Assembly (NCBI GenBank): GCA_018302235.1
Contig: JAGVZW010000033.1
Span: 434 to 64,433, forward strand
Length of the DNA stretch: 64,000 bases
DNA from: Candidatus Woesearchaeota archaeon
GTDB lineage: Archaea; Nanobdellota; Nanobdellia; SCGC-AAA011-G17; GW2011-AR18
Direction of reading: 5' to 3'
Below, one piece after another: positions 5,934 to 54,118 of the stretch. The stretch's first letter is position 1. Each line of letters opens with the position of its first letter. A model generated the notes under the pieces. The model saw nothing but the letters and a program-made list of their open reading frames with translations. It made no database searches and was not told the DNA's origin. A program made the position numbers and the translations under genes.

Positions 5934-6058
5934 ACTTTAAATCTGTTACAACAATTAAGTCAGAGATTATGGGAGAATCCTCACCCATAACTTATTGGGC
6001 AGATTTGGAACAGATTATAAACAACAAATTTATAAATAAATGTGGTTCTTCAGTAATT

Positions 6059-7123: not shown

Positions 7124-7370
7124 TAGTATTCTTGAGGCTAAGAATCAAACAGAGTTAAAAAAAGTTATAGATTCAGGAAAAATTGCTAGATGTGGTTTTT
7201 GTTCTGTTGAAATGAAAGGTGCAATTTGTGCAGAAAAGGTAGAGAAATATATTTTAGCTACAGTTAGAGGAACAAAATTAGAACAAGAGAATTTTTCAGA
7301 GAAAATAAGTAAATGTGTAATTTGTGGTGAGAGATCTAATCATATAGTTTACATTGCTAAAAGCTATTAA
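7101..7370 (+). CDS. proS: ProRS C-terminal zinc-binding domain segment, in a different frame from the upstream proS body.
   Basis: Open frame ESNHLFDNSILEAKNQTELKKVIDSGKIARCGFCSVEMKGAICAEKVEKYILATVRGTKLEQENFSEKISKCVICGERSNHIVYIAKSY*. The terminal Y and the Cys cluster match the archaeal ProRS C-terminal domain. Confidence 0.55.
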   Translation, partial: ESNHLFDNSILEAKNQTELKKVIDSGKIARCGFCSVEMKGAICAEKVEKYILATVRGTKLEQENFSEKISKCVICGERSNHIVYIAKSY

Positions 7371-31324: not shown

Positions 31325-32788
31325 ATGGAAAATCAATTAATAAAGGAAAGAAAACAGAAACTAGAGGAAATTAAAAGATTAAAGATTAATCCGTATCCTC
31401 ATAATTTTAACAAAACAACAGATATTCAAAATGTAATTAATTCTTATTCATCCATTAAATCTGAAGAAAAATCAAAAGACATATTTTCAATTGCTGGAAG
31501 AATAATTTTAGAAAGGAATATGGGCAAGGCTACTTTTTTGAACATCCAAGATCAAACTAATTCACTACAATTATATTTAAATCAACAAGAAACTAAAAAC
31601 TATGAATTAATAAAATTTTTAGACATTGGCGATATTATTGGAACTAGTGGGTACCCATTTAAAACAAAAAAAGGAGAATTAACTTTATTCGTAAAGGAAT
31701 TAACAATATTAACTAAATCATTAAGACCACTTCCAGAGAAATTTCATGGTTTAAAGGATCAAGAATTAATTTATAGACATAGGTATCTTGATTTAATTAC
31801 AAACCCAGAATCAAAAAATAAGTTTTTAATAAGAACAAAAATGATTCAGACTTTTAGGGAATTTTTAGACTCTAGAGGTTTTATAGAAGTAGAGACTCCC
31901 ACTTTACAGCCATTATATGGTGGAGCAAATGCAAAACCATTCAAAACATATTACAATGCTTTAAAAAGAGATTTCTATCTAAGGGTTTCAAATGAGTTAT
32001 ATCTAAAAAGATTATTAGTTGGGGGATTTGAAAAAGTCTATGAATTTGTTAAGGATTTTAGAAATGAAGATATTGATACTACCCATGTTCCAGAATTTAC
32101 ACAAATAGAGTTCTATGAGGCATATAAGGATTATATTCATGCAATGGAAATGTATGAACAATTAATAGAATACACGGCAAAAAAGGTTTTGGGAACAATA
32201 GAGGTAATATATCAAGGGAATAAAATCTCTTTAAAAACACCCTGGAAAAGAATATCTATGGTAGATGCTATAAAAAAATATGCTAAATTTGATGTGAATA
32301 AAAAAACAAGAAAAGAATTAACAGATTTTCTAGAAAAAAATAATATAGAATATGAAAAAGAATTGTTAGATGGTATGTTAATAAAATTAATCTTCGAAGA
32401 AACTTGCGAAAAACATTTGATTCAACCAACCTTTATCATAGATCACCCTATAGAAACAACACCCCTGTGCAAACCAAAAGAATTGAACCAAAAATTTGTA
32501 GAGAGGTTTGAGCCTTATATTGCATGTATGGAGGTAGGAAACGCATATTCAGAATTAAATGATCCTATTCTACAAAGAAGATTATTTGAAGAACAAGAGG
32601 AACGTGGTCGTGGTGGAGAAAAAGAAACCCATCCATTAGATGAAGACTTTTTAGAAGCAATGGAAACAGGAATGCCCCCAACTACTGGTGTAGGAATTGG
32701 TTTTGATAGATTAGTAATGATCTTTACAAATTCAGAATCGATTAGAGATGTAATTCTATTCCCACCAATGAAGCCTAAAACAAATTAA
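31325..32788 (+). CDS. lysS: Lysyl-tRNA synthetase, class II.
   Basis: N-terminal OB anticodon-binding domain and class II motifs (FEPYIACMEVGNAYSELNDP, GMPPTTGVGIGFDRLVMIFTNSESIRDVILFP). Confidence 0.9.
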   Translation: MENQLIKERKQKLEEIKRLKINPYPHNFNKTTDIQNVINSYSSIKSEEKSKDIFSIAGRIILERNMGKATFLNIQDQTNSLQLYLNQQETKNYELIKFLDIGDIIGTSGYPFKTKKGELTLFVKELTILTKSLRPLPEKFHGLKDQELIYRHRYLDLITNPESKNKFLIRTKMIQTFREFLDSRGFIEVETPTLQPLYGGANAKPFKTYYNALKRDFYLRVSNELYLKRLLVGGFEKVYEFVKDFRNEDIDTTHVPEFTQIEFYEAYKDYIHAMEMYEQLIEYTAKKVLGTIEVIYQGNKISLKTPWKRISMVDAIKKYAKFDVNKKTRKELTDFLEKNNIEYEKELLDGMLIKLIFEETCEKHLIQPTFIIDHPIETTPLCKPKELNQKFVERFEPYIACMEVGNAYSELNDPILQRRLFEEQEERGRGGEKETHPLDEDFLEAMETGMPPTTGVGIGFDRLVMIFTNSESIRDVILFPPMKPKTN

Positions 32789-34485: not shown

Positions 34486-37400
34486 TTATAATTTAAAACG
34501 TTTTCTTTTTAACACAAAATAAATTCCAACAATTAGTAAAATCCCAAGAATTGCTATTATTATAGGCCATAACAAAGATGTTTCTTCTTCAATCTGTTCT
34601 TCTTGAACCTCTTCTTGTGCTTCCTTTTCCTCTGTTATTGTAGGTATCTCACTAATAATTTGTTCTTTAATCGTTTGTATCCTCAATAATGCTGTATTAT
34701 TTTGTATATTATCCAAACCAACACTAAGATCATAAAAATTATCTGCATTTAAATTAAATTTTTTAGTTTCTCCTATATAAATTACTGCCTCAATAGGCTC
34801 ACTTTGTACAAGAATCTTAACATTATCATCATTAATCTCTTTTACAGTTACAGTATGTGTAGCACCCTCAAAAATAAATTCAACAATATCCCCATCATTA
34901 AAATATTGTAGAATTCCTTGTTCTAATTTCTCATTTGTTACTGTAGTTTTTGTAGTTCCGGTTGGAGTACTACTCCCACCCCCACTTGAACTTGAAGTGG
35001 TAGATAAAGATTCTCTATATGATGAAAATTCACAATATGGTATCTTCCAAACACAATTAATTGAATCCAATAGAGTTGCTTCTGCAGTTTTATCCACACA
35101 ATTTGCACCAGCATCATCACAATGATACAATGTATCACAAACCCCTGTAAATGGTATTTTTAATTTACAGACCTCTGGATGTAAATTACCTATTATTTTA
35201 TCCCTTGTAGCAGAAGTTAATCCCAAAATATTACTATCACTTATTATATCTGCTCCCCCATCAATTGATCTGACCTTATCATTTAAAGCAGTCATTGTTA
35301 AACTAGCATTAATAAATTCAAAATATACACTACTATCATTCTTTGCCATCTTTATATTAACCAACCTTCCATCTGTATAATTTGTTTTCATCCCTGAATT
35401 AGTTCCACATACTTGACCCTGTATATGCTCATATACCCCATTCTGATCTAAATCATACGAAATTACCCAAGCAGAAGTTGTTTTTATTCTTGCCACAAAA
35501 TTACAATATGGACATGTTGCATTAGTAACTGTTATTATCGAACTACATTGACTTACAGCACAATGTGAATCAGTATCACAAACCTTTATCTTATAATAAT
35601 ATCCTGTTTGATTAGAGAGACTAAAATTCAAAGCATTAGTTCCATTATATAAATTTGCAGTATGCCACAACTTATAATCCCTAACATCACTACTTACTAA
35701 ACCTATATCTCTTACTGTTGAATTCACAGTCAAACATCTTGAATAATTAGAATAAAATTCAACTGTACCATTAGTTGGTTTATTTGTATCATACATTATT
35801 AATGCTGAATCTGGATATTCCTCTAATTTTACCCCTAAGACTTGTGGTGATCTAGCATCTGTATATCCTGGAGAATTAACCCCTAAATTTGTGCATGCTG
35901 ATGAAAATTCACAATCCCAATCATAACAATCTAGTGTATTATCACCATCATCATCTACACCATTAAAGCAATCCTCATACTTTACATAACCATTCTTCAA
36001 GATATCCTCAAATTTCGCTACATTAGCTCCATAAGAAAACATACTATCTATCTCAAAATCAATAGTACCTGGTGTAAACCATATTGGTCCAATAGAATCA
36101 CTAACTACTGAAATATTTTCATATAAACCTGCTGTTGAAACATAAATCCTTATTTCTTCAGATGAATTATACAATGTAGGAAATCTAGCTAATTCTGATT
36201 TTTCTACAGCAACCATAGGCCCGCTTATCTCTGAGCACATCTTAGTCTTCCATGTAGTTAGTTTAATATCAGTAGCAGCCCAAGCATTATCATCACATTT
36301 ATACGCTGTTGTAGATTCTATTGATTTGCTATTATTCACATCCCATGTTGAAGTATATTTAAATCTAAATTCATATCCTGTTTTTGTTGTGTCATTTGTA
36401 AGTGCACATCCCCCTGTTGCCAAACCATCTGTATCTAAATATACATAAAGCTTTATAGTATCATTCCCATTACCAACTTTATCAGCACCATAAATATACG
36501 CTGGAAGTTTTTCTTTATTACATATTGAAGAATTAGAGAAATCCCTAACCTTTACACCATATCCAAAGGCATTTACCATATCCTTCACTCCAATATTGCA
36601 TATATCTATACTTCCTGCAATAGTAGTCTCATTACAATCATCATACCCTAATGGCATCATTATACCGCTTTCCATTCCAGTAAATATTTCATTCATAAAT
36701 CCAGGATTACACCATCCAGTCATCCATTTGCACCCAAACCCACAACCAGCCTGTGCAGTTTGATTATAACATGTGGGTTCACAAGTTCCCCATGCAGTAA
36801 CATTACAATAAAGATTATTATTACACTCTGTTTCCCAATCTGTTGGATTAGCCCATTTTTGTAATGTACTATTCATCCAACATTGATCCATAATATTAGT
36901 ACACCAACCATATCCTGATTCATTATTCCACCAACAATTATTTGTTGCATTGCATCCCCCCCCTGCAGGTGATAAATACATCCAACAACTACTATTAGTC
37001 CAGTCTACATCACAAAAAGGCATAGGTTCTGGGAACCATCCACATGTAAGATTAATATGTGTTTTATTTGTGCATAAACTTTGATTACCATCATATTTAT
37101 AACAATTAGAACCTGCAGCAGTAGCTACTCCACCTGCACCCATAGTCGATGCACTTGAAAATCCCCCATATTTAGGATCACACCACCCAGATTCCTTCCA
37201 TGTACATCCAGATGTAGCCTGACAACCCCCTTGATTGTACATATTTGAGGCTGAAGAACATGTTTCTAGATCCTCTTCCTGACACCATCCATTTTGATCC
37301 TTCCATTGACAACCACCTTGTGCATTACAAACAGATGATGAACTCTGATTACCTAACAAAAAACACCTTGGTTCACAAAAAGTATATGTCCAATCAGAAC

Positions 37401-40347
37401 GCCAAAAACATAAGGAATTTCCATTAGCATCAAATTGATTCGCACATGCAGCAGTAGTACTAGCACTCCAACATTTCTCAGTTGGATTTGCACACCATCC
37501 ACCCCATGTATCATTCCTCCACCAACAATCTGCATCAACACAAGTAGAATTAGAATAATATTGCCAGCAATTAGCACTATAATTTACCTCACAATGTGGA
37601 GTACTATACGAATCTACATACCAATTACATCCATCTGTATTATTACAGTTTGTTGATGTTGTATACATCCAGCAATTCTTTGGTTTAAAATTATTATGAT
37701 CACACCATCCACCAGCACCAGTACACCATGTTGTAGTATTACCCGTACCTAAACACCAAGAATCCGCAGTCCAATTACAACCATTTCCAGAAGCTGCATC
37801 ACAATTAGCCTTACTTAAACCCATACATAACTGAGTTTGACTCCAATCCTCTTCACACCAAGAATAACCAGTACCATTCTGCCATAAACATTGTGTACGT
37901 GAATTACAATAAGTTTCATTCGTATCATACTTCCAACACTGCGAACCTGGAGAATCACACCAAGTCCCCCACTTATCAACAACCCACTCACAACTATTAG
38001 TTTCACACGTTGCTTGCGTTACCCATCCAGAACATTCACCCCCAATAAAACCGCAATAACTATCTGAATAACAAGCACTGTCCATACAATCTATCAATTG
38101 ATTATTATTATTATCTGACCCATCCCAACAAATCTCTCCACTCTCTCCTACATTTGAAGAACAATATCCATCACTTGATGTTCCCTCCCACTTACAAGCC
38201 CCACTAGTATTTGAAACATCAGCTCTACCTAAACCCTGACAATCTGACTGTGTATAACACCTATCACAAGCATCTAAACATGTTTTATCCCCTTTTTTTA
38301 AACAATAACCACCTATAGTCATAGAAGTGTCTACCACCCATTTACAACCACCAGCACCAGAGTTTGCATTACTATTCTCACAATAACTTCCTGGTCTCTT
38401 TGTTGTATCATTACTAAGCGGATCTCCCATATATGTACATGCCCCACAATCAACATTACAATCCACTACAACATTATTTTTATATTGATATTTAGTTTTA
38501 CAATAGCCAATATTATTAGATGCTCTTGTATCAGCCTCAAACTCACAAATCCCTAAAAGAGAATTTCTGCACGCAGAATCAGCATTAGTCGCATTTACAG
38601 TATTCCCATCGCTATCTTCATATTCACAACCATAACAAGCCTTATCACAACTTACATCACCTCCAAACTTACTCTCACATCTTCCAGTAGGAACAGAAAT
38701 ATTACCCTCACAATAACTCTCAGTAATCCAATTTCCTCCAGTAAATTCACAAGTTCTCTTGTTAGTCAACTTATTCAGGCTTTGAGATGTATTCCCAAAG
38801 ATATCTGCTGCATCTACCAAGCATCTCTCTGTTGTATTATCCCATTTACAAGGCATATACCATGGATCACCACTAATCTGTTCACATAAAGATTTATCAG
38901 TATAAGAACTATAATCCTCACAAAAATTTGCACCCGCTGGTGGTGCTGACATCTGATCCCAACATGTTGTAATCAATTTGTTTGCAGTACAATTATTATA
39001 TTGCCAAGAGCAACACGATGATAACACAGATATACTATTACATAAATTTGAATCATTTATATAACTACACTTTATTCCATTACCTGTAATATTAATTCCA
39101 TAATTGTTGGTTAATGTATTGCATTTTTCACTAGAATAATTACAACCCAATGTCAAATTACAATTTGTTTGATTCATATCAAAAACATAACATCCAGGAT
39201 TCCATTCCTCAAATATTGTAGTAGAACTATTTGTTAATGTCCAATTTGGCGTCTGACAGCTACCACCTACACCTAGGTTATTTAGATCAGTATACACCCA
39301 CCAACAATAAGATGTTGCAGAACAATCATATTGTGTTGTTTTATTCGCACAACCTGTTGTCGTATAATCTTTATAACACCACCCTGGATTAGTAGCATTT
39401 GTAGCATTAGAATAATCATTCCATTGACAATTCATACTATAGGTATTGTTCTCACATGCACTTGCATTTCCCCCCTTTGCACCATCCCAACTCCAACATT
39501 GAGCCTCTTCGCAATAAGATGTTGATTGAGAAGATTTCCAATAACAATTAGTCATATTAGTACATGTATTATTAGCAGTAAAAGTCCAACAATCCTGCGT
39601 TGTACAATAATTACTACTCCATTTACAACTTAAATTATAGGTATTATTCACACACGCTGTCTGATTAGTCCAATCATAAACATAACATGCTGGTTCCTGA
39701 CACCAATTATTTCTCCATGCACAATTGATTTCATCTGTCACAGACGCACATGCTGTCTGATTAGTATAACTTGAACACCATCTCTCTTGACAAAGATTAG
39801 CACTCCATGTACAATTTTTACCATTCCATGATTTGCCTGCATTACACGTTGATTGAGTAGTATAATCAATACCACAATTTCTATAATCACACTTTCCCCA
39901 ACTACAACTTGTTGTATTTAAACATGAAGCTCTTGTCGTCTGTGCTGAACAATCTGCAGACCATAAAAGGTTATTATTATAACAACTCTCACTCCATTTA
40001 CATCCTAGATTCCTTGAATTATTTTCACATGTATTCTGATTTGTTCCATATAAATCATAACATGATGCCGTACCACAATAATTAGTGGTCTTGGAACCCA
40101 CCCAAGTACAATTTTTTCCAGTAATTACAGTATTTGTACATTCATTTTGTGAGCCTAGATTCCAACAAGCCAATTCTGTACAGTATTTTCCCCCAGAATA
40201 CTGCTTCCAAATACAAGCATTAGCAGCAGTACAACTTGCATTATTAGTCTCAGTATACAACCAACAATTTGCACCATATATTGACTTAATAAAAACAAAA
40301 ACTAAAAAAAATATTAAAAGATAAATGTATATATTATTTTTCTTCAT
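34486..40347 (-). CDS. Giant (1953 aa) secreted, C-terminally membrane-anchored, Cys/Trp-rich repeat surface protein.
   Basis: Signal peptide MKKNNIYIYLLIFFLVFVFIKSIYG. Dozens of ~30-aa modules of the form C-[WY]-x(4-6)-N-x-[ST]-x-C-x(4-8)-C-x-W-x(4-8)-C. Very dense N-x-S/T sequons. A Ser/Thr-rich linker (SSSGGGSSTPTGTTKTT), an acidic stretch, a C-terminal TM helix and a KRKRFKL tail. Confidence 0.8.
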   Translation of the reverse strand: MKKNNIYIYLLIFFLVFVFIKSIYGANCWLYTETNNASCTAANACIWKQYSGGKYCTELACWNLGSQNECTNTVITGKNCTWVGSKTTNYCGTASCYDLYGTNQNTCENNSRNLGCKWSESCYNNNLLWSADCSAQTTRASCLNTTSCSWGKCDYRNCGIDYTTQSTCNAGKSWNGKNCTWSANLCQERWCSSYTNQTACASVTDEINCAWRNNWCQEPACYVYDWTNQTACVNNTYNLSCKWSSNYCTTQDCWTFTANNTCTNMTNCYWKSSQSTSYCEEAQCWSWDGAKGGNASACENNTYSMNCQWNDYSNATNATNPGWCYKDYTTTGCANKTTQYDCSATSYCWWVYTDLNNLGVGGSCQTPNWTLTNSSTTIFEEWNPGCYVFDMNQTNCNLTLGCNYSSEKCNTLTNNYGINITGNGIKCSYINDSNLCNSISVLSSCCSWQYNNCTANKLITTCWDQMSAPPAGANFCEDYSSYTDKSLCEQISGDPWYMPCKWDNTTERCLVDAADIFGNTSQSLNKLTNKRTCEFTGGNWITESYCEGNISVPTGRCESKFGGDVSCDKACYGCEYEDSDGNTVNATNADSACRNSLLGICEFEADTRASNNIGYCKTKYQYKNNVVVDCNVDCGACTYMGDPLSNDTTKRPGSYCENSNANSGAGGCKWVVDTSMTIGGYCLKKGDKTCLDACDRCYTQSDCQGLGRADVSNTSGACKWEGTSSDGYCSSNVGESGEICWDGSDNNNNQLIDCMDSACYSDSYCGFIGGECSGWVTQATCETNSCEWVVDKWGTWCDSPGSQCWKYDTNETYCNSRTQCLWQNGTGYSWCEEDWSQTQLCMGLSKANCDAASGNGCNWTADSWCLGTGNTTTWCTGAGGWCDHNNFKPKNCWMYTTSTNCNNTDGCNWYVDSYSTPHCEVNYSANCWQYYSNSTCVDADCWWRNDTWGGWCANPTEKCWSASTTAACANQFDANGNSLCFWRSDWTYTFCEPRCFLLGNQSSSSVCNAQGGCQWKDQNGWCQEEDLETCSSASNMYNQGGCQATSGCTWKESGWCDPKYGGFSSASTMGAGGVATAAGSNCYKYDGNQSLCTNKTHINLTCGWFPEPMPFCDVDWTNSSCWMYLSPAGGGCNATNNCWWNNESGYGWCTNIMDQCWMNSTLQKWANPTDWETECNNNLYCNVTAWGTCEPTCYNQTAQAGCGFGCKWMTGWCNPGFMNEIFTGMESGIMMPLGYDDCNETTIAGSIDICNIGVKDMVNAFGYGVKVRDFSNSSICNKEKLPAYIYGADKVGNGNDTIKLYVYLDTDGLATGGCALTNDTTKTGYEFRFKYTSTWDVNNSKSIESTTAYKCDDNAWAATDIKLTTWKTKMCSEISGPMVAVEKSELARFPTLYNSSEEIRIYVSTAGLYENISVVSDSIGPIWFTPGTIDFEIDSMFSYGANVAKFEDILKNGYVKYEDCFNGVDDDGDNTLDCYDWDCEFSSACTNLGVNSPGYTDARSPQVLGVKLEEYPDSALIMYDTNKPTNGTVEFYSNYSRCLTVNSTVRDIGLVSSDVRDYKLWHTANLYNGTNALNFSLSNQTGYYYKIKVCDTDSHCAVSQCSSIITVTNATCPYCNFVARIKTTSAWVISYDLDQNGVYEHIQGQVCGTNSGMKTNYTDGRLVNIKMAKNDSSVYFEFINASLTMTALNDKVRSIDGGADIISDSNILGLTSATRDKIIGNLHPEVCKLKIPFTGVCDTLYHCDDAGANCVDKTAEATLLDSINCVWKIPYCEFSSYRESLSTTSSSSGGGSSTPTGTTKTTVTNEKLEQGILQYFNDGDIVEFIFEGATHTVTVKEINDDNVKILVQSEPIEAVIYIGETKKFNLNADNFYDLSVGLDNIQNNTALLRIQTIKEQIISEIPTITEEKEAQEEVQEEQIEEETSLLWPIIIAILGILLIVGIYFVLKRKRFKL

Positions 40348-42094: not shown

Positions 42095-43522
42095 TTAGTT
42101 TAACATAGCTTTTTTAATAAATATATGAGCATTATACAACTTTTCACATTTTATTTCATAATCCTTTATGTCTATTTTTTTAGAAAATATTGGACAATTA
42201 ACTACTAAAGTCTCTGCTTCTCCACCTTCAAATGCAACATTTATCCCCTTAATTTTAACTAATTTATCAACATCCTTTTCAGTAATTATTCTACCCAACC
42301 AAGATTTATCCAAACCATCACAAGCTACCTTGGTTATAATAAATTCAAAACCATTTCTAATTACCTCTCTTATCTCTTTTTCCTGATCCATATGCCATAA
42401 TGGTGAAAATATCTTTAAACCTAAAGAATCACAAATCTCTTCAATTCTTTTTCTTTGATAATCACTAAAAAGACCGCCATGTACTACCCCATCTATATGA
42501 TATTTTTTTTTAGCTAATTTTAACACTATTTTTAAATCCTCTAATTCCTTTTCTTTTTCACCCCAAGTTTCTTGTATAATTAAAGGAATACCTAAAGAAT
42601 CTGCCTGTAATCTAACTAAATCTATAGTTGGTGTATGATACATAAAAGAATCTTTATTTTTACTTTTAATTGTAACTAAACATTCAATCTTATAATTTTG
42701 TTTCATCATTACATACATTGCATAAATACTGTCCTTGCCACCACTAACTAATGCACCTAATCTTAAATTATAAGAATAATATTTCTTTAAATAACCTGAA
42801 ATATCTCTTTTTCCTGATTTTTTTAATGCCTTATGAAAATTAGAACCATATTGGGCAGCCCTTTTCTTTCTATTATATATCTCTTTTTTTAAACCCAAAT
42901 CCTTTCCTATTTCTCTCAAAATTAATTTATTATTCTTCTCATTAATCTTATATTTTCCATCAATATTTAAAACAAATTCAATTAATTTCTTATCTAAAAA
43001 TGGTAGTCTTAATTCTAAATTATTATACATAGTTATTACATCATCTCTATATAAATCTCTCTCATACATCTTTAACAAACCACTTAAACATTCTTTATTT
43101 ATATCATTAGAATTTTTATGTCTTTCATAACCAGCAAATATCTCTTCAGAACCCAAACCAGAGAAAATTACCTTACAACCATCTTTTCTTGCTTGTTCAC
43201 ATGCTACAAAGAAAGGCAAAGCTACACCAACCTTAGTAACATTTGTATCTTCAATCAATGGAATTATCTTTTCTAAATATGGTTTAATATCTTTAATTTC
43301 TATTACTTTCAAATCTAAATTTAACTCTTTAGCTACTTTTTTAGCAAAAATTACATCTTCAGCTTCTTTAATATTTTCACTATAAAAACCAGAAACATAA
43401 CAAGTAAAATCAACATTAAATTCCTTTAAAATCACAGCTAAAATTGTAGAATCTATTCCACCAGAAAACAGTAAACCTAATTTCTTTTTAGGTATTCTTT
43501 TTTTTACAGCTTCAAACAACAA
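42095..43522 (-). CDS. Asparagine-synthetase-type PP-loop synthetase domain fused to a Dph6/MJ0570-like PP-loop ATPase domain.
   Basis: N-terminal LGLLFSGGIDST with GYERH...RDD...LELRLPFLD is the AsnB C-domain pattern. The C-terminal half has a second PP-loop, ALVSGGKDSIYAM, resembling diphthine-ammonia ligase (Dph6) type ATP-binding domains. The apparent start codon is TTG. Confidence 0.65.
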   Translation of the reverse strand: MLFEAVKKRIPKKKLGLLFSGGIDSTILAVILKEFNVDFTCYVSGFYSENIKEAEDVIFAKKVAKELNLDLKVIEIKDIKPYLEKIIPLIEDTNVTKVGVALPFFVACEQARKDGCKVIFSGLGSEEIFAGYERHKNSNDINKECLSGLLKMYERDLYRDDVITMYNNLELRLPFLDKKLIEFVLNIDGKYKINEKNNKLILREIGKDLGLKKEIYNRKKRAAQYGSNFHKALKKSGKRDISGYLKKYYSYNLRLGALVSGGKDSIYAMYVMMKQNYKIECLVTIKSKNKDSFMYHTPTIDLVRLQADSLGIPLIIQETWGEKEKELEDLKIVLKLAKKKYHIDGVVHGGLFSDYQRKRIEEICDSLGLKIFSPLWHMDQEKEIREVIRNGFEFIITKVACDGLDKSWLGRIITEKDVDKLVKIKGINVAFEGGEAETLVVNCPIFSKKIDIKDYEIKCEKLYNAHIFIKKAMLN

Positions 43523-43985
43523 TCTTTCTTGGGTTTAGCTCAATCATTTCTTTAAATACTTTTTTTTCTGAAGCAAACATAAATCCATCTTTATTTGTGT
43601 ACCATAAAGGTTTTATTCCTAAAATATCTCTTGCTAAAATTACCTTATCATCTTTAATTAAAGCAAAGGCATAAGATCCATCTAATTCATCTAAATCTAA
43701 TCCTTTATCTACAAAATAAAATAATAGTTCAGCATCATTTTTAGCCTTGAGATTATATTTTCTATTCAATTCTTCCCAATTATAAATCTCACAATTAGCA
43801 ACAAACCTATTCTTTATTGGCTGTTCAACAAAACCCACAATTGAATGAAGTAAATGGCCTATTGAATAGTTTATATTAGAATAAACTTTTTTCCCATCTA
43901 AACCTCTATATTTTATTATTTCTAAACCCTTTTCAACTAATTCTTTATGATTTTTTCTATTGAATACTCCAATTATTCCACACAT
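43512..43985 (-). CDS. Class II (Ntn) glutamine amidotransferase domain of asparagine synthetase.
   Basis: MCGIIGVF has the N-terminal catalytic Cys. RGLDG, NCEIYN, GSYAFAL, ARDILGIKPLWY and FMFASEKK match the AsnB GATase domain. It overlaps the next ORF by 11 nt in another frame. Confidence 0.7.
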   Translation of the reverse strand: MCGIIGVFNRKNHKELVEKGLEIIKYRGLDGKKVYSNINYSIGHLLHSIVGFVEQPIKNRFVANCEIYNWEELNRKYNLKAKNDAELLFYFVDKGLDLDELDGSYAFALIKDDKVILARDILGIKPLWYTNKDGFMFASEKKVFKEMIELNPRKIVV

Positions 43986-44168: not shown

Positions 44169-45905
44169 ATGAAAACAAAATATAGAACCCATACTTGTGG
44201 GCAATTAAATAAAAATGATTTAAATAAAGAAGTTACATTAGCTGGATGGGTTCAAGCTAGAAGAGATCACGGTGGATTAATTTTCATAGATTTAAGGGAT
44301 AGATATGGTTCAACACAAATAGTTTTTAATCCTGATTTTAATGATTTTAAATTAGCAGAATCTCTAAGAAGAGAATATTGTATCCAAATAAAAGGCAAAG
44401 TAAAATTAAGACCTAAAGGCATGATTAATAATAATCTCTCTACTGGGGATATAGAGGTTGAGGTAAATGAAGTAAATCTATTAAATAAATCAGAAGTTCC
44501 ACCATTTGAGATTGATGAAAGGATAGAAATTAATGAAGATTTAAGATTAAAATACAGATATTTAGATTTAAGAAGAAAAAATATGTTAAAAAACCTAGAG
44601 TTAAGGTATAGAATGACTCAAATTGTAAGAAATTTTTTAGATAAACATAATTTTATTGACGTTGAAACCCCTTGTTTAACTAAATCAACCCCAGAAGGTG
44701 CAAGAGATTATCTTGTTCCATCAAGAGTTAATCCAAAACAATTTTATGCTTTACCACAATCACCCCAATTATTCAAACAAATTTTAATGATCTCAGGTTA
44801 TGACAGATATTATCAAATTGTTAGGTGTTTTAGAGATGAGGATCTAAGAGCTGATAGACAGCCAGAATTTACTCAGATAGATATTGAAATGGCCTTTATT
44901 GAAGAAGAAGATATTCAAAATATTGTTGAAGGTATAATGAAGGAATTATTTAAAGAATTCAAAAATAAAGACTTAAAATTACCATTAAAAAGAATAAGTT
45001 TTCATCAAGCAATAGAAACCTATGGTTCTGATAAACCAGATTTAAGATTCAATTTAGAATTAATTGACGTTGATGAGATAGTAAAAAAAAGTGATTTCAA
45101 TATATTTAAAACATCAGAATTAGTTAAGGCAATTAGTTTAGAAAAAGAAATTTCTAGAAAAGATTTAGATGAAATAACTGGCTGGGCCATGAGAAATGGT
45201 GCCAGAGGCTTAGCATGGATTAAAGTTAATGATGGAAAATATGATGGAGCTGTTGTAAAATATTTTAAAGAAAAAGAGTTAAAAGAATTAACAAAAAAAT
45301 TAAATGTTAAAAATGGAGTAATATTTTTTGTTGCAGATAAAAGAAAAACCGTTAATGAAGTTTTAGGAAGATTGAGAAATTATTTAGCTGAAAAATATAA
45401 ATTAATTGATGAAAATAAAGATGAATTATTTTGGGTAGTTGATTTTCCATTATTTGAGTATTCAGAGGATGAACAAAGATGGGTTTCAGTACATCATCCA
45501 TTTACTCAACCACATCCAGATCAAGTTAAAAAGATGACTACTGACCCGGGAAATGTTAGATCTAGGGGTTATGACTTAGTTTGGAATGGTAATGAGATAG
45601 CTGGTGGTTCAATAAGAATCCATGGACAAGAAATGCAATCAGATGTGTTTAAGTCATTAGGGATATCAGAAGAAGAGGCTAAAATCAAATTTAGTTTTTT
45701 ATTAGATGCCTTAAAATTTGGCGCACCACCACATGGAGGAATAGCTTTTGGTTTAGATAGATTAACTATGCTATTTGCTAAAACTAATTCAATAAGAGAT
45801 GTTATTGCTTTTCCTAAGAATAAAGATGCAGTTTGTTTAATGACAAATGCTCCTTCTCCAGTAACAGATTCTCAATTGAAAGAATTACATATTAAATTAA
45901 GATAA
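44169..45905 (+). CDS. aspS: Aspartyl-tRNA synthetase, bacterial type (with GAD insertion domain).
   Basis: THTCGQLNKNDLNKEVTLAGWVQARRDHGGLIFIDLRDRYG is a bacterial AspRS N-terminus. 578 aa, class II motifs, C-terminal GGIAFGLDRL. Confidence 0.9.
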   Translation: MKTKYRTHTCGQLNKNDLNKEVTLAGWVQARRDHGGLIFIDLRDRYGSTQIVFNPDFNDFKLAESLRREYCIQIKGKVKLRPKGMINNNLSTGDIEVEVNEVNLLNKSEVPPFEIDERIEINEDLRLKYRYLDLRRKNMLKNLELRYRMTQIVRNFLDKHNFIDVETPCLTKSTPEGARDYLVPSRVNPKQFYALPQSPQLFKQILMISGYDRYYQIVRCFRDEDLRADRQPEFTQIDIEMAFIEEEDIQNIVEGIMKELFKEFKNKDLKLPLKRISFHQAIETYGSDKPDLRFNLELIDVDEIVKKSDFNIFKTSELVKAISLEKEISRKDLDEITGWAMRNGARGLAWIKVNDGKYDGAVVKYFKEKELKELTKKLNVKNGVIFFVADKRKTVNEVLGRLRNYLAEKYKLIDENKDELFWVVDFPLFEYSEDEQRWVSVHHPFTQPHPDQVKKMTTDPGNVRSRGYDLVWNGNEIAGGSIRIHGQEMQSDVFKSLGISEEEAKIKFSFLLDALKFGAPPHGGIAFGLDRLTMLFAKTNSIRDVIAFPKNKDAVCLMTNAPSPVTDSQLKELHIKLR

Positions 45906-45966: not shown

Positions 45967-47172
45967 TTAAATAAAATATAAAAATAAATTAGCAATTAAA
46001 TGCGCTAATATTGGATAAAAAATACTTCCTTTTCTAGCTAAATAGCCCATAAACAAAGAAAATATAAATAGAGCAATAAAATAAAGAATTACAAATAAAT
46101 AATCATTATAATATGAAAAAATTGTTTTTAAAAATAAAAAATGGATCGAAGCAAACAATAATGATTGTAATATTTGTGCTTTTTTAAAAGAAAATGATTT
46201 TTCACTTAATTTTAAAAGAATTAATCTAAACATATTTTCTTCTGTGATTGCAATAAATATTGGAGCAAATATGAAACTAAAATTTATGGGTTCTTTAATA
46301 ATATAAAATACATAACCAAGACAAAAGCCAAATAACAAAGATAGTAATATATTTTTTAAATTAAAAATAAAATTAAATTCTAATTTAAAAAACCTAACTA
46401 GATATATCGAAATTATTGTTAATAAAATTAGAATTATTTGATCTATAAAAGGAATATATTTTTCTAACAAAAAACCAATAAAACCAAAAAATAAATATAA
46501 GAATATTATTGCATTAATAGCTAAAATAAAATCATCTCTATATTCCTTTAAACCTATTAATTCCCTATAAAATACAAAATTAAAGATTAAACTTACTATT
46601 AAAAATGAAAAGAGAATAATTATTGAATTATTAATTAGATTTATAATTCCTATAGCTAATAATACAACACTAAACCCATATATTATAATTAATTTATTAT
46701 TTAATAAATCTTTTAAAATATTTCTGGCTAAATATCTACAACTAAAATAAGTGAAGATAAAAAAACCACCTAAATAAAATAAGATATCTAATAAAAATAA
46801 AAAAATAAGTAAAAAAACCATAATATAATCATTACTTTCTATAAAAAATAGAATTCCATTAAAATAATAATTTACAATAGAATAAATATAATTCCAGAGA
46901 AATATTCCTAAAAATACAAGGCTTCCTAAAAACAAAGAACTTATTAAAATATCCCTAAATTTTCTAATTAGTAAAAGAAAAACAAATATTAAAATAAGAA
47001 TAACAAATAATGTTTCAAAATTAAAGAAACTTACGGATGACAATTTATACGTTAAGAAATCAACACCAATTATACCTCCTGAAGATATAATCGCCTTTTG
47101 ATTCACCCACGGAACAAACAAAAAACAGAGAATAGATATAACTATGCAGCAGATTAAAATGTATCTTTTCAA
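45967..47172 (-). CDS. CPBP-family (CAAX protease/Abi) intramembrane metalloprotease with a long N-terminal membrane extension.
   Basis: TEENMFRLILL (EExxxR), LFASIHF (FxxxH) and ILAHLIANLF (HxxxN). Confidence 0.6.
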   Translation of the reverse strand: MKRYILICCIVISILCFLFVPWVNQKAIISSGGIIGVDFLTYKLSSVSFFNFETLFVILILIFVFLLLIRKFRDILISSLFLGSLVFLGIFLWNYIYSIVNYYFNGILFFIESNDYIMVFLLIFLFLLDILFYLGGFFIFTYFSCRYLARNILKDLLNNKLIIIYGFSVVLLAIGIINLINNSIIILFSFLIVSLIFNFVFYRELIGLKEYRDDFILAINAIIFLYLFFGFIGFLLEKYIPFIDQIILILLTIISIYLVRFFKLEFNFIFNLKNILLSLLFGFCLGYVFYIIKEPINFSFIFAPIFIAITEENMFRLILLKLSEKSFSFKKAQILQSLLFASIHFLFLKTIFSYYNDYLFVILYFIALFIFSLFMGYLARKGSIFYPILAHLIANLFLYFI

Positions 47173-47302
47173 ACCATTTATAAAATCCCCTATTTTAACA
47201 TCAAAAACAACAAAACAGCAAAATAGAATAGGAATAATTAATAAAAATAAAACACCTAATCCACTTAAGATGTAAATAATTGTGGTTAAAATATTAATTG
47301 AT

Positions 47303-47941
47303 TCAGATTGAAAATGTTCTATTAAGCTTAAATGTAAGTTTTCTACCGAGAATATTTAATATCTTAATTTTCTCACTCTTTAAGTCTTTAATAGCATAAA
47401 TTAGCGCCACAATAAATAAAGATTTGTCTAAAGATACCATGAACCATTGATTAACTAAACCAAACAAATATTGTGAAAATGCAAATAAAATTATAAAGAT
47501 TGAAAAAAACCTTAACCATAAGTTATTCTTTAAATAATTAGTTTTCTTAATTAAATTTGTTACTGCATAAACAACAGATAATTCTTTAATATTATTTTTT
47601 TTAGAGAAATAAAATGCTATTATTATTAGTATACTAGTACCTAATATCAAAGAAATATAACTAATTAATGTAGAATATATAGAAATATCTTTTTCTATAA
47701 AAGGAAGAAAGGTATCAATAACTAAAATATAAAATCCAAATAGAATTAACCAGTCTAATTTTTTATTCTTCGTACCTATGATAAAATTTGTTGGACTTAA
47801 CCTTAACCAAAAACAAAATAATAAAATTGCTGTTAATAATTTATCAATAATATTAAATGAACCTGGTAAAAGATTAAAAAAATCAAGAAAACCAAGGCAC
47901 AAAAGAAACAATTTAAAAATAATATCTAAATATTTATTCAT
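47303..47941 (-). CDS. Polytopic membrane protein, hypothetical.
   Basis: 212 aa with 6 or more hydrophobic segments. Confidence 0.35.
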   Translation of the reverse strand: MNKYLDIIFKLFLLCLGFLDFFNLLPGSFNIIDKLLTAILLFCFWLRLSPTNFIIGTKNKKLDWLILFGFYILVIDTFLPFIEKDISIYSTLISYISLILGTSILIIIAFYFSKKNNIKELSVVYAVTNLIKKTNYLKNNLWLRFFSIFIILFAFSQYLFGLVNQWFMVSLDKSLFIVALIYAIKDLKSEKIKILNILGRKLTFKLNRTFSI

Positions 47942-47971: not shown

Positions 47972-48762
47972 CTATTGTTTCTTTGTAAATATAATAATTG
48001 CAATTATACCTAATATTATAATAAATACAAAGATTATTGTTGTTAATGAAAACCCCCAAATAACAGTATGAGATGATACCCCTGCTATTGAATTCGAATT
48101 TGCTATTGGTTTATCAGAAAATGTACTTGTTGAAACAACCTCTCCTGCTTCAAGATTATTAAAATTATATTTTATAACGGGATCATTTTCAATTATTTCA
48201 GTATTATCTGGCAAAACTAATTCTGATGCATCTGCTACATCTTCTTTTGGAATCTCAATTATTATATCTAAATCACCATCTTCAGGCATGACATATGTTT
48301 CTTTTAATTCATAAAATTCTTTACTTTCTCCATTTTTATTAATACCTACATGTGTAATTAACTCTTTTTTTTCTGCATTAACTGGTCTTTCTTTTTCTAA
48401 ATTAAAAATTGCTGTTTCTAAACCTTTATTTGGTTTTTCTTGAAGTTTTTTAGTTAAAATAATTAAAGCTCTATCCCTTCCTTTGTCCTCTAATTTTTCT
48501 TCTTTTAATACAAAAGTTTCTGCATCTTCATCAATAAATTTTTTAGCAGCTTTTTTTTCATCTTTATCATCCTTGTCTTCTACTTCATCTTTATCATCCT
48601 TGTCTTCTACTTCATCTTTATCATCCTTGTCTTCTACTTCATCTTTATCATCCTTTTGTCTTCCTTGTCATCTTCAGATTCATTTGAACCAGCAAAGACT
48701 AAAGAAAAAAAACTAATTAAAAAAAATACTATAATAACACTAGAGATTATTTTTTTATACAT
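47972..48762 (-). pseudogene. Acidic-repeat, C-terminally anchored secreted protein gene disrupted by frameshifts.
   Basis: ATG at 48762 encodes a signal peptide MYKKIISSVIIVFFLISFFL and then stops. A second frame encodes SLVFAGSNESEDDKEDK. A third frame (48667..47972) carries four DDKDEVEDK repeats, then ...MPEDGD... and a C-terminal TM helix. The shifts lie at a T7 run and inside the 27-nt repeat array. Confidence 0.4.
48558..48675. repeat. 27-nt tandem repeat, about 4 copies, with the last copy degenerate.
   Basis: Unit tcatctttatcatccttgtcttctact. On the coding strand this encodes DDKDEVEDK. Confidence 0.8.
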
Positions 48763-51488: not shown

Positions 51489-52607
51489 ATGGAAAAGAAA
51501 TATTCCTCCCATCACGATACTAAAAAATATGCATGGGATTTTGCAAGAGAAAGATTTGGAAGTAAAGATGATGAAATTACTAAAGTAGAAACGTTAAGTT
51601 TATCTAGAAAAGATGAGAGTAAAAAAGATTCTGGTATTTTGAATGTTAAAACTAAAGATCAATTAAGTCAAGTGCATGAGAGTAATATTAAAGAAGAACC
51701 TCATATTTTAAAACCTTGGTATAAATTAATAGAACGGCTTACATATAGAAAAAAGAATAACGAGCTTACAAAAATTGATGAAAATTCTTTTAAAAGAATT
51801 GTAAAGATTGGATCAGTATTTATTGAAATCAATGACCGTACTGCTTATAACAGAGCTTTATATGAAAGAGGAAATAATTTTGGACTAGAAGAGCGTTTTT
51901 TGAAAAAACATTTTAAAGGTATTAGTTTTGCTGCTGCAACTACTGCTTTAACTATAGGAGTATTTACATTATATAATAGATTTAAATCTTCAATTGACGA
52001 TCATTTTCAAGTAAAAACCCCTATTAGCTATCAAATTAAAGAGCTTGAAGATGATTTAGAGGGAATCGTTGAAGATTATAAACCCAGAGAAATTGAAGTT
52101 GTTGAAACTAAACCAATTAAAGTTGTTGAAACTAAACCAATTAAAGTTGTTGAAACTAAACCAATTAAAGTTGTTGAAACTAAACCAATTAAAGTTGTTG
52201 AAACTAAACCCAGAGAAGAGATTAGAAAAAATGGGATGTATAGTGTTGATTTTTCAAGAACAAGTTTTAGAAATGGAAGAATAATAAGCACTACTGAATC
52301 TAATAAAATAATGCGGTTTTCAGAATATCATGGAACTCCTTATAAAGGGGAGGGCGATGAATTAAAATTGCGGATAAATAAAGATGGAACATCTTATCAA
52401 ATAAGATCTGAAACGAAAAAAGCTAGGAACTATTTTGTTATATGTTATGATACAAATGGTAATTTTATTGGGACTAAAAATGGAAATATTTCTAATGAGG
52501 ATGTAGTTCAAATACCTAAGGAAACAAGATATACTGATACTATGCTATTAAATGAAAAAGGAATAAGTATTGCATCACATATCAGTTACCAAAATATTGT
52601 TTTATAA
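51489..52607 (+). CDS. Hypothetical protein with a single TM segment and a VETKPIKV tandem-repeat region.
   Basis: 372 aa with a TM helix at GISFAAATTALTIGVFTLY. Four to five in-frame VVETKPIK repeats are encoded by a 24-nt tandem array. Confidence 0.45.
   Translation: MEKKYSSHHDTKKYAWDFARERFGSKDDEITKVETLSLSRKDESKKDSGILNVKTKDQLSQVHESNIKEEPHILKPWYKLIERLTYRKKNNELTKIDENSFKRIVKIGSVFIEINDRTAYNRALYERGNNFGLEERFLKKHFKGISFAAATTALTIGVFTLYNRFKSSIDDHFQVKTPISYQIKELEDDLEGIVEDYKPREIEVVETKPIKVVETKPIKVVETKPIKVVETKPIKVVETKPREEIRKNGMYSVDFSRTSFRNGRIISTTESNKIMRFSEYHGTPYKGEGDELKLRINKDGTSYQIRSETKKARNYFVICYDTNGNFIGTKNGNISNEDVVQIPKETRYTDTMLLNEKGISIASHISYQNIVL
52098..52211. repeat. 24-nt perfect tandem repeat (4.75 copies) flanked by aaacccagagaa.
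   Basis: Unit gttgttgaaactaaaccaattaaa, in frame within the 51489..52607 CDS. Confidence 0.85.
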
Positions 52608-53722: not shown

Positions 53723-54118
53723 TTAATACTTCCTTTTTCTTCTATCTAATGTTAGAAGTTCAATTTTAAATGGATCTTTTTTTATTTCTTTAACTATTGT
53801 AGCTGGTCCAACAATAGTTAAACCATTTGATCTACCCAATAAAAAATTAGCAATTTTTAATCTGATCCTCTCAAATAATTCCTGATTTTGTTTAATGTTA
53901 TCAATACTGCATATCTCGATCCCCTTAAATTTTTTATCTATTTCCTCCATTGTTTTAGTTATTAATTCTGCCTCTTCATTAGGATCTAATTTTCCCTCTA
54001 TTAAAATTATCTTATCCTCTTTTACACTCCTTAAAATCTTTTTTAATTTTTCTTCTGTATTCAAATTTCCAAGTTCATGATATGGGATATATTGTAACGT
54101 TAACAATTTTTTGTTCAC
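53723..54118 (-). CDS. Conserved archaeal hypothetical protein, possibly DUF2073-like.
   Basis: 131 aa, overlaps the upstream GTPase stop by 4 nt and lies 3 nt upstream of the Zn-ribbon gene. Confidence 0.35.
   Translation of the reverse strand: MNKKLLTLQYIPYHELGNLNTEEKLKKILRSVKEDKIILIEGKLDPNEEAELITKTMEEIDKKFKGIEICSIDNIKQNQELFERIRLKIANFLLGRSNGLTIVGPATIVKEIKKDPFKIELLTLDRRKRKY

What the first reader, a model, noticed from the sequence alone, without database searches (positions are those of the whole stretch)
42095..43985. Glutamine-dependent asparagine synthetase appears split, and its synthetase domain is fused to a Dph6-like second PP-loop domain
ORF 43512..43985 is a complete AsnB-type Ntn glutamine amidotransferase domain (MCGIIG...). 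It overlaps by 11 nt, in another frame, the next ORF. That ORF starts at TTG with the AsnB synthetase domain (SGGIDST PP-loop, RLPFLD) and continues into a second PP-loop domain (SGGKDS), resembling diphthine-ammonia ligase (Dph6/MJ0570-type) ATPases. This is either a single frameshifted gene or a genuinely split enzyme. A GATase / AsnB-like / Dph6-like architecture would suggest glutamine-derived ammonia being channelled to an amidation such as diphthamide formation.
Basis: partly seen in the sequence, partly recalled or inferred. Interest (0 to 1): 0.55.

Follow-up and report, generated by a model that had tools for sequence, protein, structure and literature searches.

The report
Known diphthamide-enzyme fusion, broken by misassembly
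The two reading frames are one gene for a three-part enzyme (glutamine-splitting domain, asparagine-synthetase-like domain, diphthamide-forming Dph6 domain) that is standard in Woesearchaeota and was first described in 2012. It looks split here only because this contig lacks 95 bases that many near-identical assemblies have, one of three such gaps in the contig.

Summary
ORF 43512..43985(-) is an AsnB-type Ntn glutaminase and ORF 42095..43522(-) is an AsnB-like PP-loop domain fused to a bona fide archaeal Dph6 domain (TIGR03679 264 bits, cutoff 197).

The split is not a conserved feature. More than 24 contigs from independent assemblies of the same groundwater population carry one intact 661-aa gene; the 11 compared at DNA level are 99.8-100% identical to the window. 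The window lacks 95 nt (31 conserved codons plus 2 nt).

The contig carries two more sharp non-triplet deletions. One of 146 nt breaks the essential ProRS gene and one of 173 nt breaks an Rce1-like gene, while the intervening DNA shows about 1 mismatch per 10-20 kb. A collapsed assembly gap is therefore the best explanation.

The fusion is already known. GATase / AsnB-like / Dph6 is one ORF in 80 of the 80 species genomes shown (410 relatives found), mostly Woesearchaeota/Nanoarchaeota. NCBI names it diphthine--ammonia ligase. The architecture and the glutamine-to-ammonia idea were published in 2012 (PMC3541065).

One residual point may be new. The AsnB-like module never has the catalytic Glu (0/146) or the Arg of the TTxR motif (0/143) of true asparagine synthetases. 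It persists in natural forms that have lost the glutaminase.

Interest is low.

The parts
43512..43985 (-). 5' fragment of the gene: Ntn (class II) glutamine amidotransferase domain. It equals residues 1-155 of the intact 661-aa protein plus VV*. NCBI MBS3159873.1, annotated 'hypothetical protein'.
43520..43524 (-). Junction of the 95-nt deletion (3-nt microhomology ATT). The missing DNA encodes residues 156-186, LVYENNKIRFIQREFFKLNLIKGKNKEKVKE. These form the last two strands of the glutaminase domain, the linker and the start of the first synthetase helix.
42776..43522 (-). AsnB-like PP-loop (synthetase-like) domain, the first ~249 aa of the 475-aa ORF. The ORF equals residues 187-661 of the intact protein; its TTG 'start' is the codon of Leu187.
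43448..43465 (-). First PP-loop, SGGIDS (AsnB-like domain). The motif is invariant in 112/112 homologues.
43142..43162 (-). SGLGSEE motif. Leu stands where asparagine synthetases have the catalytic Glu (E. coli AsnB E348, human ASNS E364).
42107..42757 (-). Dph6 (diphthine--ammonia ligase, DUF71/PF01902) domain.
42728..42745 (-). Second PP-loop, SGGKDS (Dph6 domain).
42212..42229 (-). EGGEAE: the Dph6-subfamily signature EGG(E/D)xE, containing the predicted catalytic Glu (PF0828 E188).
7106..7108 (.). Junction of a second sharp deletion (146 nt), which breaks the ProRS gene into ORFs 5930..7123 and 7212..7370. It is part of the evidence that the contig has collapsed gaps.
47342..47344 (.). Junction of a third sharp deletion (173 nt), which breaks a 715-aa Rce1-like/CPBP membrane protease gene into ORFs 45967..47172 and 47303..47941.

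Best explanation
Window 42095..43985(-) is a single gene for the three-domain enzyme that Woesearchaeota and related DPANN archaea use as their diphthine--ammonia ligase. The domain order is N-terminal Ntn glutaminase, AsnB-like PP-loop domain, C-terminal Dph6 domain.

In this contig the gene appears as two overlapping ORFs because 95 nt are missing between the glutaminase and the AsnB-like domain. The gap is most probably a local assembly or scaffolding artefact (a collapsed gap at a strain-variation branch point) and not a property of the organism.

Mechanism, shown versus inferred:
- Shown by sequence: the Dph6 domain has every residue that defines archaeal Dph6.
- Inferred from established Dph6 chemistry: it adenylates the carboxylate of diphthine on EF-2 and amidates it to diphthamide.
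- Shown: the glutaminase keeps the Cys1 nucleophile and the N74, E76 and D98 equivalents.
- Inferred, and published as a hypothesis in 2012: it supplies NH3 from glutamine.
- Unknown: the role of the AsnB-like domain. It keeps the PP-loop and most of the adenylate pocket but lacks the catalytic Glu and the Arg of TTxR, so it is probably not a canonical asparagine synthetase.
For: One gene, and the fusion is the norm:
- The homologue search gave 2239 hits. The best 120 are almost all 640-720 aa with GATase + Asn_synthase + Diphthami_syn_2.
- 410 species genomes encode a relative. The 80 shown all cover residues 1 to ~630-661 in one frame, with a single ORF of median 699 aa.

Intact in the same population:
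- P0122 (661 aa) lies on at least 24 contigs from ENA and JGI assemblies with the same synteny.
- ORF1 is identical to its residues 1-155 and ORF2 to residues 187-661.

The deletion:
- 95 nt, with flanks 99.8-100% identical to 11 assemblies.

Artefact:
- Two more sharp deletions, also 2 mod 3: 146 nt in ProRS and 173 nt in the Rce1-like gene.
- The rest of the contig is almost identical to a single 49-kb ENA contig: 1 mismatch in 21,019 nt and 0 in 8,209 nt.
- The split proteins are on record from one contig only.
- Breakpoints coincide with contig ends or strain switches in other assemblies. L002 and L003 start 1-3 nt before the 3' edge of the deletion. L101 changes from 96% to 100% identity at 7108.

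Function:
- TIGR03679 scores 264 bits against a cutoff of 197.
- The Dph6 part is ~40-50% identical to PH1257 and PF0828, with TM-score 0.92 normalised to those targets.
- The Dph6 signature residues are present in 112/112 homologues.
- The AF2 model of the intact protein has pLDDT 87.7 and pTM 0.83.
Against: - No reads were available, so the deletion could be a real minor-strain allele.
- A scan of JGI metagenome contigs for the deletion junction found nothing, but the positive control (the intact junction) also found nothing, so that test is void.
- Natural proteins that lack the glutaminase exist: P0098, P0107 and 18 of 150 cluster representatives. An ORF2-like product is therefore not biologically absurd.
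- No biochemical evidence exists for glutamine use by any member of this fusion.
Confidence: 0.8

Rival explanations
1. The 95-nt deletion is real in this strain. The gene is either a fresh pseudogene, or it yields a dead glutaminase fragment plus a still-functional ammonia-dependent AsnB-like/Dph6 protein started at an internal codon.
For: - The junction is clean, with 3-nt microhomology and an imperfect direct repeat AAAGA(A)TT.T.GTTT on both sides.
- Natural relatives work without a glutaminase: P0098 has none within 3 kb, and P0107 lacks the first ~60 residues including Cys1.
- Stand-alone archaeal Dph6 proteins are ammonia-dependent (established knowledge, PMC3541065).
Against: - The same contig has two further frame-breaking deletions, one in the essential ProRS gene, on a background of ~0.005-0.1% divergence. 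Three independent disruptive deletions with almost no point substitutions is not what recent natural decay looks like.
- The split products occur on one contig only, against at least 24 intact contigs.
- ORF2 has no ATG; its TTG is simply the first possible start after a stop.
Confidence: 0.15
2. A genuinely split, evolutionarily maintained two-subunit enzyme: a separate glutaminase subunit plus an AsnB-like/Dph6 subunit.
For: The only support is the two overlapping ORFs in the window. Some cluster representatives have only two of the three domains.
Against: - No relative shows a split at this position; 80/80 species loci have one ORF.
- The nearest relatives (99.9%, 90% and 84% identity) are intact.
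- 31 conserved residues are missing, including the invariant Y158, R168, F170 and F171. They are not redistributed between the two ORFs.
- The glutaminase fold is truncated.
Confidence: 0.02
3. A programmed ribosomal frameshift or other recoding joins the two ORFs in vivo.
For: The ORFs overlap by 11 nt and an A-rich stretch lies nearby.
Against: - A frameshift would still give a protein lacking 31 conserved residues.
- All relatives encode the protein in one frame without any shift.
Confidence: 0.01
4. A plain asnB whose C-terminal extension carries a chance SGGKDS.
For: None was found.
Against: - The C-terminal 217 aa match the Dph6 models over their full length and above the curated cutoff.
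- They superpose on PF0828 and PH1257 with TM-score 0.92.
- They carry the EGGExE signature.
Confidence: 0

Closest known systems
GAT-II / Asn_synthase PP-loop / DUF71 (Dph6) fusion proteins of Methanohalophilus mahii, Methanosalsum zhilinae and 'Ca. Nanosalinarum sp. J07AB56' (de Crecy-Lagard et al. 2012, Biol Direct 7:32, PMC3541065)
   Same: - Same three domains in the same order.
- Same proposal that glutamine hydrolysis supplies NH3 to the Dph6 domain.
- NCBI already names the Woesearchaeota proteins 'diphthine--ammonia ligase'.
   Different: - The proteins of the three 2012 organisms were not retrieved here, so orthology with them was not tested.
- The window copy is interrupted by a 95-nt deletion.
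- The 2012 paper listed 'a few Archaea'. Here the fusion is the rule in at least 410 species-level genomes, mostly Woesearchaeota/Nanoarchaeota.
Stand-alone archaeal Dph6 (PF0828, PDB 3RJZ/3RK0/3RK1; PH1257, PDB 2D13; MJ0570 type)
   Same: - The C-terminal domain is ~40-50% identical, with TM-score 0.92 normalised to those targets.
- It has PP-loop SGGKDS, H48, E78, Y103, Q104 and EGGExE188.
   Different: Those proteins are ~220 aa, single-domain and use free ammonia. Here about 440 extra N-terminal residues are attached.
Glutamine-dependent asparagine synthetase (E. coli AsnB, PDB 1CT9; human ASNS, PDB 6GQ3)
   Same: - Same two-domain fold for residues 1 to ~435 (TM-score 0.76 normalised to 1CT9).
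- Kept: the Cys1 nucleophile, the N74, E76 and D98 equivalents, PP-loop SGGxDS, the D400 and R403 equivalents and the K466 equivalent.
   Different: - Leu replaces the catalytic Glu (E348/E364); the E364A and E364Q variants of ASNS are inactive (PMC6748925).
- Gly or Ser replaces the Arg of TTxR.
- Leu replaces the glutamine-binding R49/R48.
- The last ~100 residues of AsnB are absent.
- Scores fall below the curated cutoffs of TIGR01536 and NF006949.
Eukaryotic Dph6 (yeast YLR143w) with C-terminal RidA/YjgF domains
   Same: A Dph6 core fused to a domain proposed to deliver or handle ammonia (PMC3541065).
   Different: [quoted passage not shown]

Membership tests
Dph6, diphthine--ammonia ligase (TIGR03679 / PF01902, Dph6 subfamily of DUF71) | Full-length match to the curated equivalog model, above its cutoff | tested here: met
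   Cutoff 197.3 bits. Window ORF 264.3 bits over profile 2-216/218. Intact P0122 263.9 bits.
Dph6, diphthine--ammonia ligase (TIGR03679 / PF01902, Dph6 subfamily of DUF71) | N-terminal PP-loop SGGKD and His48 around the ATP phosphates | tested here: met
   - SGGKDS at window 42728..42745.
- S, G, K, D and H are each present in 112/112 homologues.
- The definition comes from PMC3541065.
Dph6, diphthine--ammonia ligase (TIGR03679 / PF01902, Dph6 subfamily of DUF71) | EGG(E/D)xE188 motif, as opposed to ENGE(F/Y)H of the DUF71-B12 subfamily | tested here: met
   EGGEAE at window 42212..42229. The E, G, G, E and E positions are each 112/112.
Dph6, diphthine--ammonia ligase (TIGR03679 / PF01902, Dph6 subfamily of DUF71) | Predicted EF-2 interface residues S44, E78, Y103, Q104 | tested here: met
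   All four are 112/112. Y45 is Y or F.
Dph6, diphthine--ammonia ligase (TIGR03679 / PF01902, Dph6 subfamily of DUF71) | Fold of PF0828/PH1257 | tested here: met
   Foldseek TM-score 0.92 normalised to the target, rmsd 1.3-1.5 A, using the AF2 model of the intact homologue.
Dph6, diphthine--ammonia ligase (TIGR03679 / PF01902, Dph6 subfamily of DUF71) | ATP-dependent amidation of diphthine on EF-2; presence of dph2, dph5 and an EF-2 with the target His in the same genome | not testable with these tools
   - The activity needs biochemistry.
- Among the 24 larger window ORFs scanned, none was dph2, dph5 or EF-2. Not every ORF of the 64 kb was scanned.
- The rest of the genome was not available.
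Asparagine synthetase, glutamine-hydrolysing (AsnB/ASNS; TIGR01536, NF006949) | Score above the curated cutoff of the equivalog models | tested here: not met
   For the intact P0122: TIGR01536 249.4 bits against a cutoff of 267.1, and NF006949 214.6 against 499. The window ORFs separately score 92.6 and 154.1 bits.
Asparagine synthetase, glutamine-hydrolysing (AsnB/ASNS; TIGR01536, NF006949) | N-terminal Cys nucleophile and the glutamine pocket (R48/49, N74, G75, E76, D96/98) | tested here: inconclusive
   - Kept: Cys 108/112, N 107/112, E 110/112, D 112/112.
- Changed: the Arg is Leu in 107/112 and G75 is Cys in 102/112.
Asparagine synthetase, glutamine-hydrolysing (AsnB/ASNS; TIGR01536, NF006949) | PP-loop SGGxDS in the synthetase domain | tested here: met
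   SGGIDS at window 43448..43465; the motif is present in 112/112.
Asparagine synthetase, glutamine-hydrolysing (AsnB/ASNS; TIGR01536, NF006949) | Catalytic Glu of the SGEGSDE motif (E. coli E348, human E364; E364A/Q inactive) | tested here: not met
   - Leu in 111/112 close homologues.
- 0/146 Glu or Asp among cluster representatives.
- The alignment is unambiguous.
- The role of the residue comes from PMC6748925.
Asparagine synthetase, glutamine-hydrolysing (AsnB/ASNS; TIGR01536, NF006949) | TTxR motif (human T336, T337, R339) | tested here: not met
   The motif reads V/T-K-x-G. The Arg position is Gly in 103/112 close homologues and is Arg in 0/143 representatives.
GAT-II / AsnB-like / DUF71 fusion class (PMC3541065) | Three domains in this order in one polypeptide | tested here: met
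   Met for the intact allele and for all relatives. In the window itself the polypeptide is interrupted by the 95-nt deletion.

The most novel reading that the evidence does not exclude
The AsnB-like module of these fusions is not an asparagine synthetase. It is a distinct PP-loop module without the catalytic Glu, tied to Dph6.
- Its ATP-binding loop and most of the adenylate pocket are under strong selection.
- It never has the catalytic Glu or the Arg of TTxR.
- It stays attached to Dph6 even in lineages that have lost the glutaminase.

It would then have an undescribed role in diphthamide formation. Candidates are an ammonia relay, an ATP-dependent gate, a dimerisation or EF-2-docking scaffold, or a second adenylation reaction. 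That would answer the question raised by a reviewer of the 2012 paper: which of the two PP-loops uses the ammonia?
Probability: 0.35. Interest if true: 0.45.

Novelty: already known. Interest (0 to 1): 0.14.

Why it matters
As posed, the finding matters little. The fusion is published and routinely annotated, and the 'split' is best read as a defect of this MAG.

Practical value:
- The contig (NCBI locus tags J4436_) carries at least three collapsed gaps of about 95-173 nt that create false pseudogenes, including ProRS. Gene-loss or split-gene inferences from this genome need care.

Scientific residue:
- The three-domain enzyme is the standard Dph6 of a large archaeal lineage, yet it has never been characterised.
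- The residue census suggests its middle domain is not an asparagine synthetase.
- That makes a 2012 open question (which PP-loop uses the glutamine-derived ammonia, and what the second one does) testable with one recombinant protein.

Tried and rejected
1. **Functional link to the divergently transcribed bacterial-type AspRS (44169..45905).** Rejected: 0 of 80 related loci have an AspRS within 3 kb, not even the 90%-identical L014. The tblastn control on L004 worked.
2. **Any conserved neighbour (dph2, dph5, EF-2).** Clustering the flanking ORFs of 80 loci gave nothing present in more than 16 loci.
3. **Search for the deletion junction in JGI metagenome contigs.** 0 hits, but the control pattern for the intact junction also gave 0 hits, although JGI contigs with it are known. 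The collection evidently does not hold these records and the test says nothing.
4. **Exact look-up of the 157-aa product in the gene index.** Not on record there. The cluster look-up found it once, from NCBI.
5. **P0003 and P0061 as possible independent split forms.** Rejected. The P0003 contigs simply begin at that point. The P0061 contig is a chimera with a LINE-type reverse transcriptase fused in front of the glutaminase C-half.
6. **Literature search for the role of E. coli AsnB Glu348.** Nothing found under that name. The equivalent human Glu364 data were found instead.
7. **Intron, intein or recoding explanations for the 95 nt.** Rejected, because the segment encodes conserved in-frame residues in all relatives.
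Full report
**1. What is in the sequence**

On the minus strand, ORF 43512..43985 (157 aa, MCGIIG...) and ORF 42095..43522 (475 aa, TTG start) overlap by 11 nt in different frames.

- The short ORF matches GATase_7 and GATase_6 and covers positions 1-169 of the asparagine synthase model TIGR01536.
- The long ORF matches Asn_synthase over aa 4-245 and Diphthami_syn_2 over aa 256-472.
- The long ORF also scores 264.3 bits on the curated archaeal Dph6 model TIGR03679, whose cutoff is 197.3.

The exact proteins are in NCBI as MBS3159873.1 ('hypothetical protein') and MBS3159872.1 ('diphthine--ammonia ligase'). They come from a 64,784-nt contig of a Candidatus Woesearchaeota MAG with locus tags J4436_.

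**2. Why the gene looks split**

A homologue search returned 2239 hits. The best 120 are almost all 640-720 aa and carry all three domains in one chain.

The closest full-length protein, P0122 (661 aa), lies on at least 24 contigs from independent ENA and JGI assemblies of Rifle-type groundwater. All share the window's gene order: AspRS, this gene, a 195-aa gene, a 128-aa gene, a HIT protein and a 1953-aa protein.

- ORF1 is identical to P0122 residues 1-155, followed by VV*.
- ORF2 is identical to residues 187-661, so its TTG 'start' is simply the codon of Leu187.
- Residues 156-186 (LVYENNKIRFIQREFFKLNLIKGKNKEKVKE) are absent.

At the DNA level the window lacks 95 nt, with the junction at 43520..43524 and 3-nt microhomology. 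The 6 kb around it are 99.8-100% identical to 11 assemblies.

The missing segment contains residues invariant in the family: Y158, R168, F170 and F171. In an AlphaFold model of the intact protein (pLDDT 87.7, pTM 0.83) it forms strands 154-159 and 162-167, a linker and the start of helix 181-194. In the alignment to E. coli AsnB it corresponds to the end of the glutaminase domain and the interdomain linker. The lesion is thus neither a 1-nt indel nor a domain-boundary split.

**3. Real deletion or artefact**

Comparing the whole window with the same assemblies showed two more sharp deletions.

- 146 nt at 7106..7108 cuts the ProRS gene into ORFs 5930..7123 and 7212..7370. Other assemblies have an intact 515-528-aa ProRS.
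- 173 nt at 47342..47344 cuts a 715-aa Rce1-like gene into 401-aa and 212-aa ORFs.

All three lengths are 2 mod 3. Between them the window is almost identical to one 49-kb ENA contig: 1 mismatch in 21,019 nt and 0 mismatches in 8,209 nt. Three disruptive deletions, one in an essential single-copy aminoacyl-tRNA synthetase, on a background of about 0.005-0.1% divergence do not look like natural decay. They look like unassembled stretches lost when contigs were joined.

The breakpoints support this, because they coincide with places where other assemblies break or switch strain.

- Two contigs of a 91%-identical relative (L002, L003) begin 1-3 nt before the 3' edge of the 95-nt deletion. They are 100% identical to this population for the next ~100 nt.
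- L101 changes from 96% to 100% identity at 7108.
- L007 is divergent right next to 47343.

The split products are on record from one contig only. I could not examine reads. A scan for the junction in JGI contigs was void because its positive control also failed. I put an artefact at about 0.8 and a real minor allele at about 0.15.

**4. The fusion itself is ordinary for this lineage and already published**

A scan of one genome per species found 410 genomes encoding a relative. The 80 best all match residues 1 to ~630-661 in one frame, and each has a single ORF (median 699 aa). Nearly all are labelled Woesearchaeota, Nanoarchaeota or Nanoarchaeia.

De Crecy-Lagard et al. 2012 (PMC3541065) described AsnB (GAT-II + Asn_synthase PP-loop) fused to the N-terminus of DUF71/Dph6 in Methanohalophilus mahii, Methanosalsum zhilinae and 'Ca. 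Nanosalinarum'. They proposed that glutamine hydrolysis supplies the ammonia. A reviewer asked which PP-loop uses it and what the AsnB-like one does. I found no later paper on this point.

**5. How it probably works**

*Dph6 domain*
- It carries everything that defines the Dph6 subfamily: SGGKD, H48, S44, E78, Y103, Q104 and EGGExE188. Each is present in 112/112 homologues.
- It has the PF0828/PH1257 fold, with TM-score 0.92.
- Amidation of diphthine via an adenylate follows from established Dph6 chemistry. It is inferred here, not shown.

*Glutaminase domain*
- It keeps the Cys nucleophile (108/112) and the N74, E76 and D98 equivalents.
- It has Leu instead of the glutamine-binding Arg48/49 (107/112).

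*AsnB-like domain*
- It keeps the PP-loop (112/112), the D400 and R403 equivalents, the K466 equivalent and the acidic pair after the glycine-rich turn.
- Its motif reads SGLGSEE where asparagine synthetases read SGEGSDE. The Glu is Leu in 111/112 close homologues and is never Glu or Asp in 146 cluster representatives.
- The Arg of TTxR is never Arg in 143 representatives.
- In human ASNS the E364A and E364Q variants are inactive (PMC6748925).
- Even the intact protein scores below the curated cutoffs of the asparagine synthase models: 249.4 against 267.1, and 214.6 against 499.

Natural forms without a working glutaminase exist.
- P0098 has none within 3 kb, in two samples.
- P0107 starts after the Cys, in two samples.
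- 18 of 150 representatives have only the AsnB-like and Dph6 domains. Some two-domain representatives are contig-end fragments, so that count is rough.
- These forms keep SGLGSEE and EGGExE.

The AsnB-like/Dph6 pair is therefore the conserved core, and the glutaminase is an add-on. The middle domain is probably not a canonical asparagine synthetase, and its role is unknown.

**6. Context checks that led nowhere**

The adjacency to AspRS is not conserved (0/80). No neighbour recurs in more than 16 of 80 loci. None of the 24 larger window ORFs scanned was dph2, dph5 or EF-2.

**7. Verdict**

- Novelty: already known.
- Interest is low, about 0.14.
- The only point that may be new is the systematic loss of the catalytic Glu and Arg in the AsnB-like module, together with its retention without the glutaminase. 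This makes the 2012 question experimentally approachable.

Noticed in passing
window 5930..7370 (junction 7106..7108): The ProRS gene is broken by a sharp 146-nt deletion relative to otherwise 100%-identical assemblies, which carry an intact 515-528-aa ProRS. An essential gene appears as a false pseudogene in this MAG.
   Followed up: yes
window 45967..47941 (junction 47342..47344): A 715-aa Rce1-like/CPBP membrane protease gene is broken by a sharp 173-nt deletion into 401-aa and 212-aa ORFs. Other assemblies (L007, L008) also vary around this gene.
   Followed up: yes
window 48557..48674 and 52091..52210: BLAST segments overlap or duplicate here relative to L004 and L010, including 72-nt repeat hits. 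This suggests tandem-repeat copy-number differences between assemblies.
   Followed up: no
window 34486..40347 (-): A 1953-aa Cys-, Asn- and Trp-rich protein with an N-terminal signal-like segment and a C-terminal hydrophobic anchor. The precomputed hits on record in related contigs list no Pfam family. It is conserved at ~100% identity in all assemblies of this population.
   Followed up: no
window 54115..56136 (-): A 673-aa GTPase (MMR_HSR1 / GTP_EFTU hits) interrupted by an intein with a LAGLIDADG homing-endonuclease domain.
   Followed up: no
window 44169..45905 (+) and 31325..32788 (+): This archaeon has a bacterial-type AspRS with a GAD domain (NF001750, 861 bits) and a class II bacterial-type LysRS (NF001756, 655 bits). 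Neither is linked to the Dph6 fusion in other genomes.
   Followed up: partly
L094 2822..4354, L095 3001..4533 (P0098); L105 2001..3791, L106 936..2726 (P0107): Natural relatives that have lost the glutaminase. P0098 has lost it entirely and P0107 has lost its first ~60 residues, including the Cys nucleophile. Each occurs in two samples with an unrelated divergent gene 75-90 nt upstream.
   Followed up: partly
L096 1..600 (P0061): The contig is a chimera, or carries an insertion. A LINE-type reverse-transcriptase reading frame (…FLDLSKAFDTIDH…GVPQGSVLGPLLF…) runs straight into the C-terminal half of the glutaminase domain of a Woesearchaeota Dph6 fusion gene.
   Followed up: no
P0005 (source SRR3989344), relative to P0122 residues ~167-219: A 98%-identical variant has an in-frame loss of about 53 residues between two similar short sequences (IRFIQREF / VILKEFNV), which removes the first PP-loop. 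It may be another assembly artefact in this AT-rich gene.
   Followed up: no
P0139 (1005 aa): A cluster representative in which an SMC-like N-terminal ATPase head (~345 aa) precedes a Dph6 fusion lacking its first ~15 residues, including the Cys. It could be a gene-calling run-through, a chimera or a real fusion.
   Followed up: no
tool behaviour: The metagenome-contig collection returned no match for a 26-mer that is present in JGI contigs retrieved through the look-up of encoding contigs (for example 3300025311). Negative results from that scan cannot be used for this population.
   Followed up: yes
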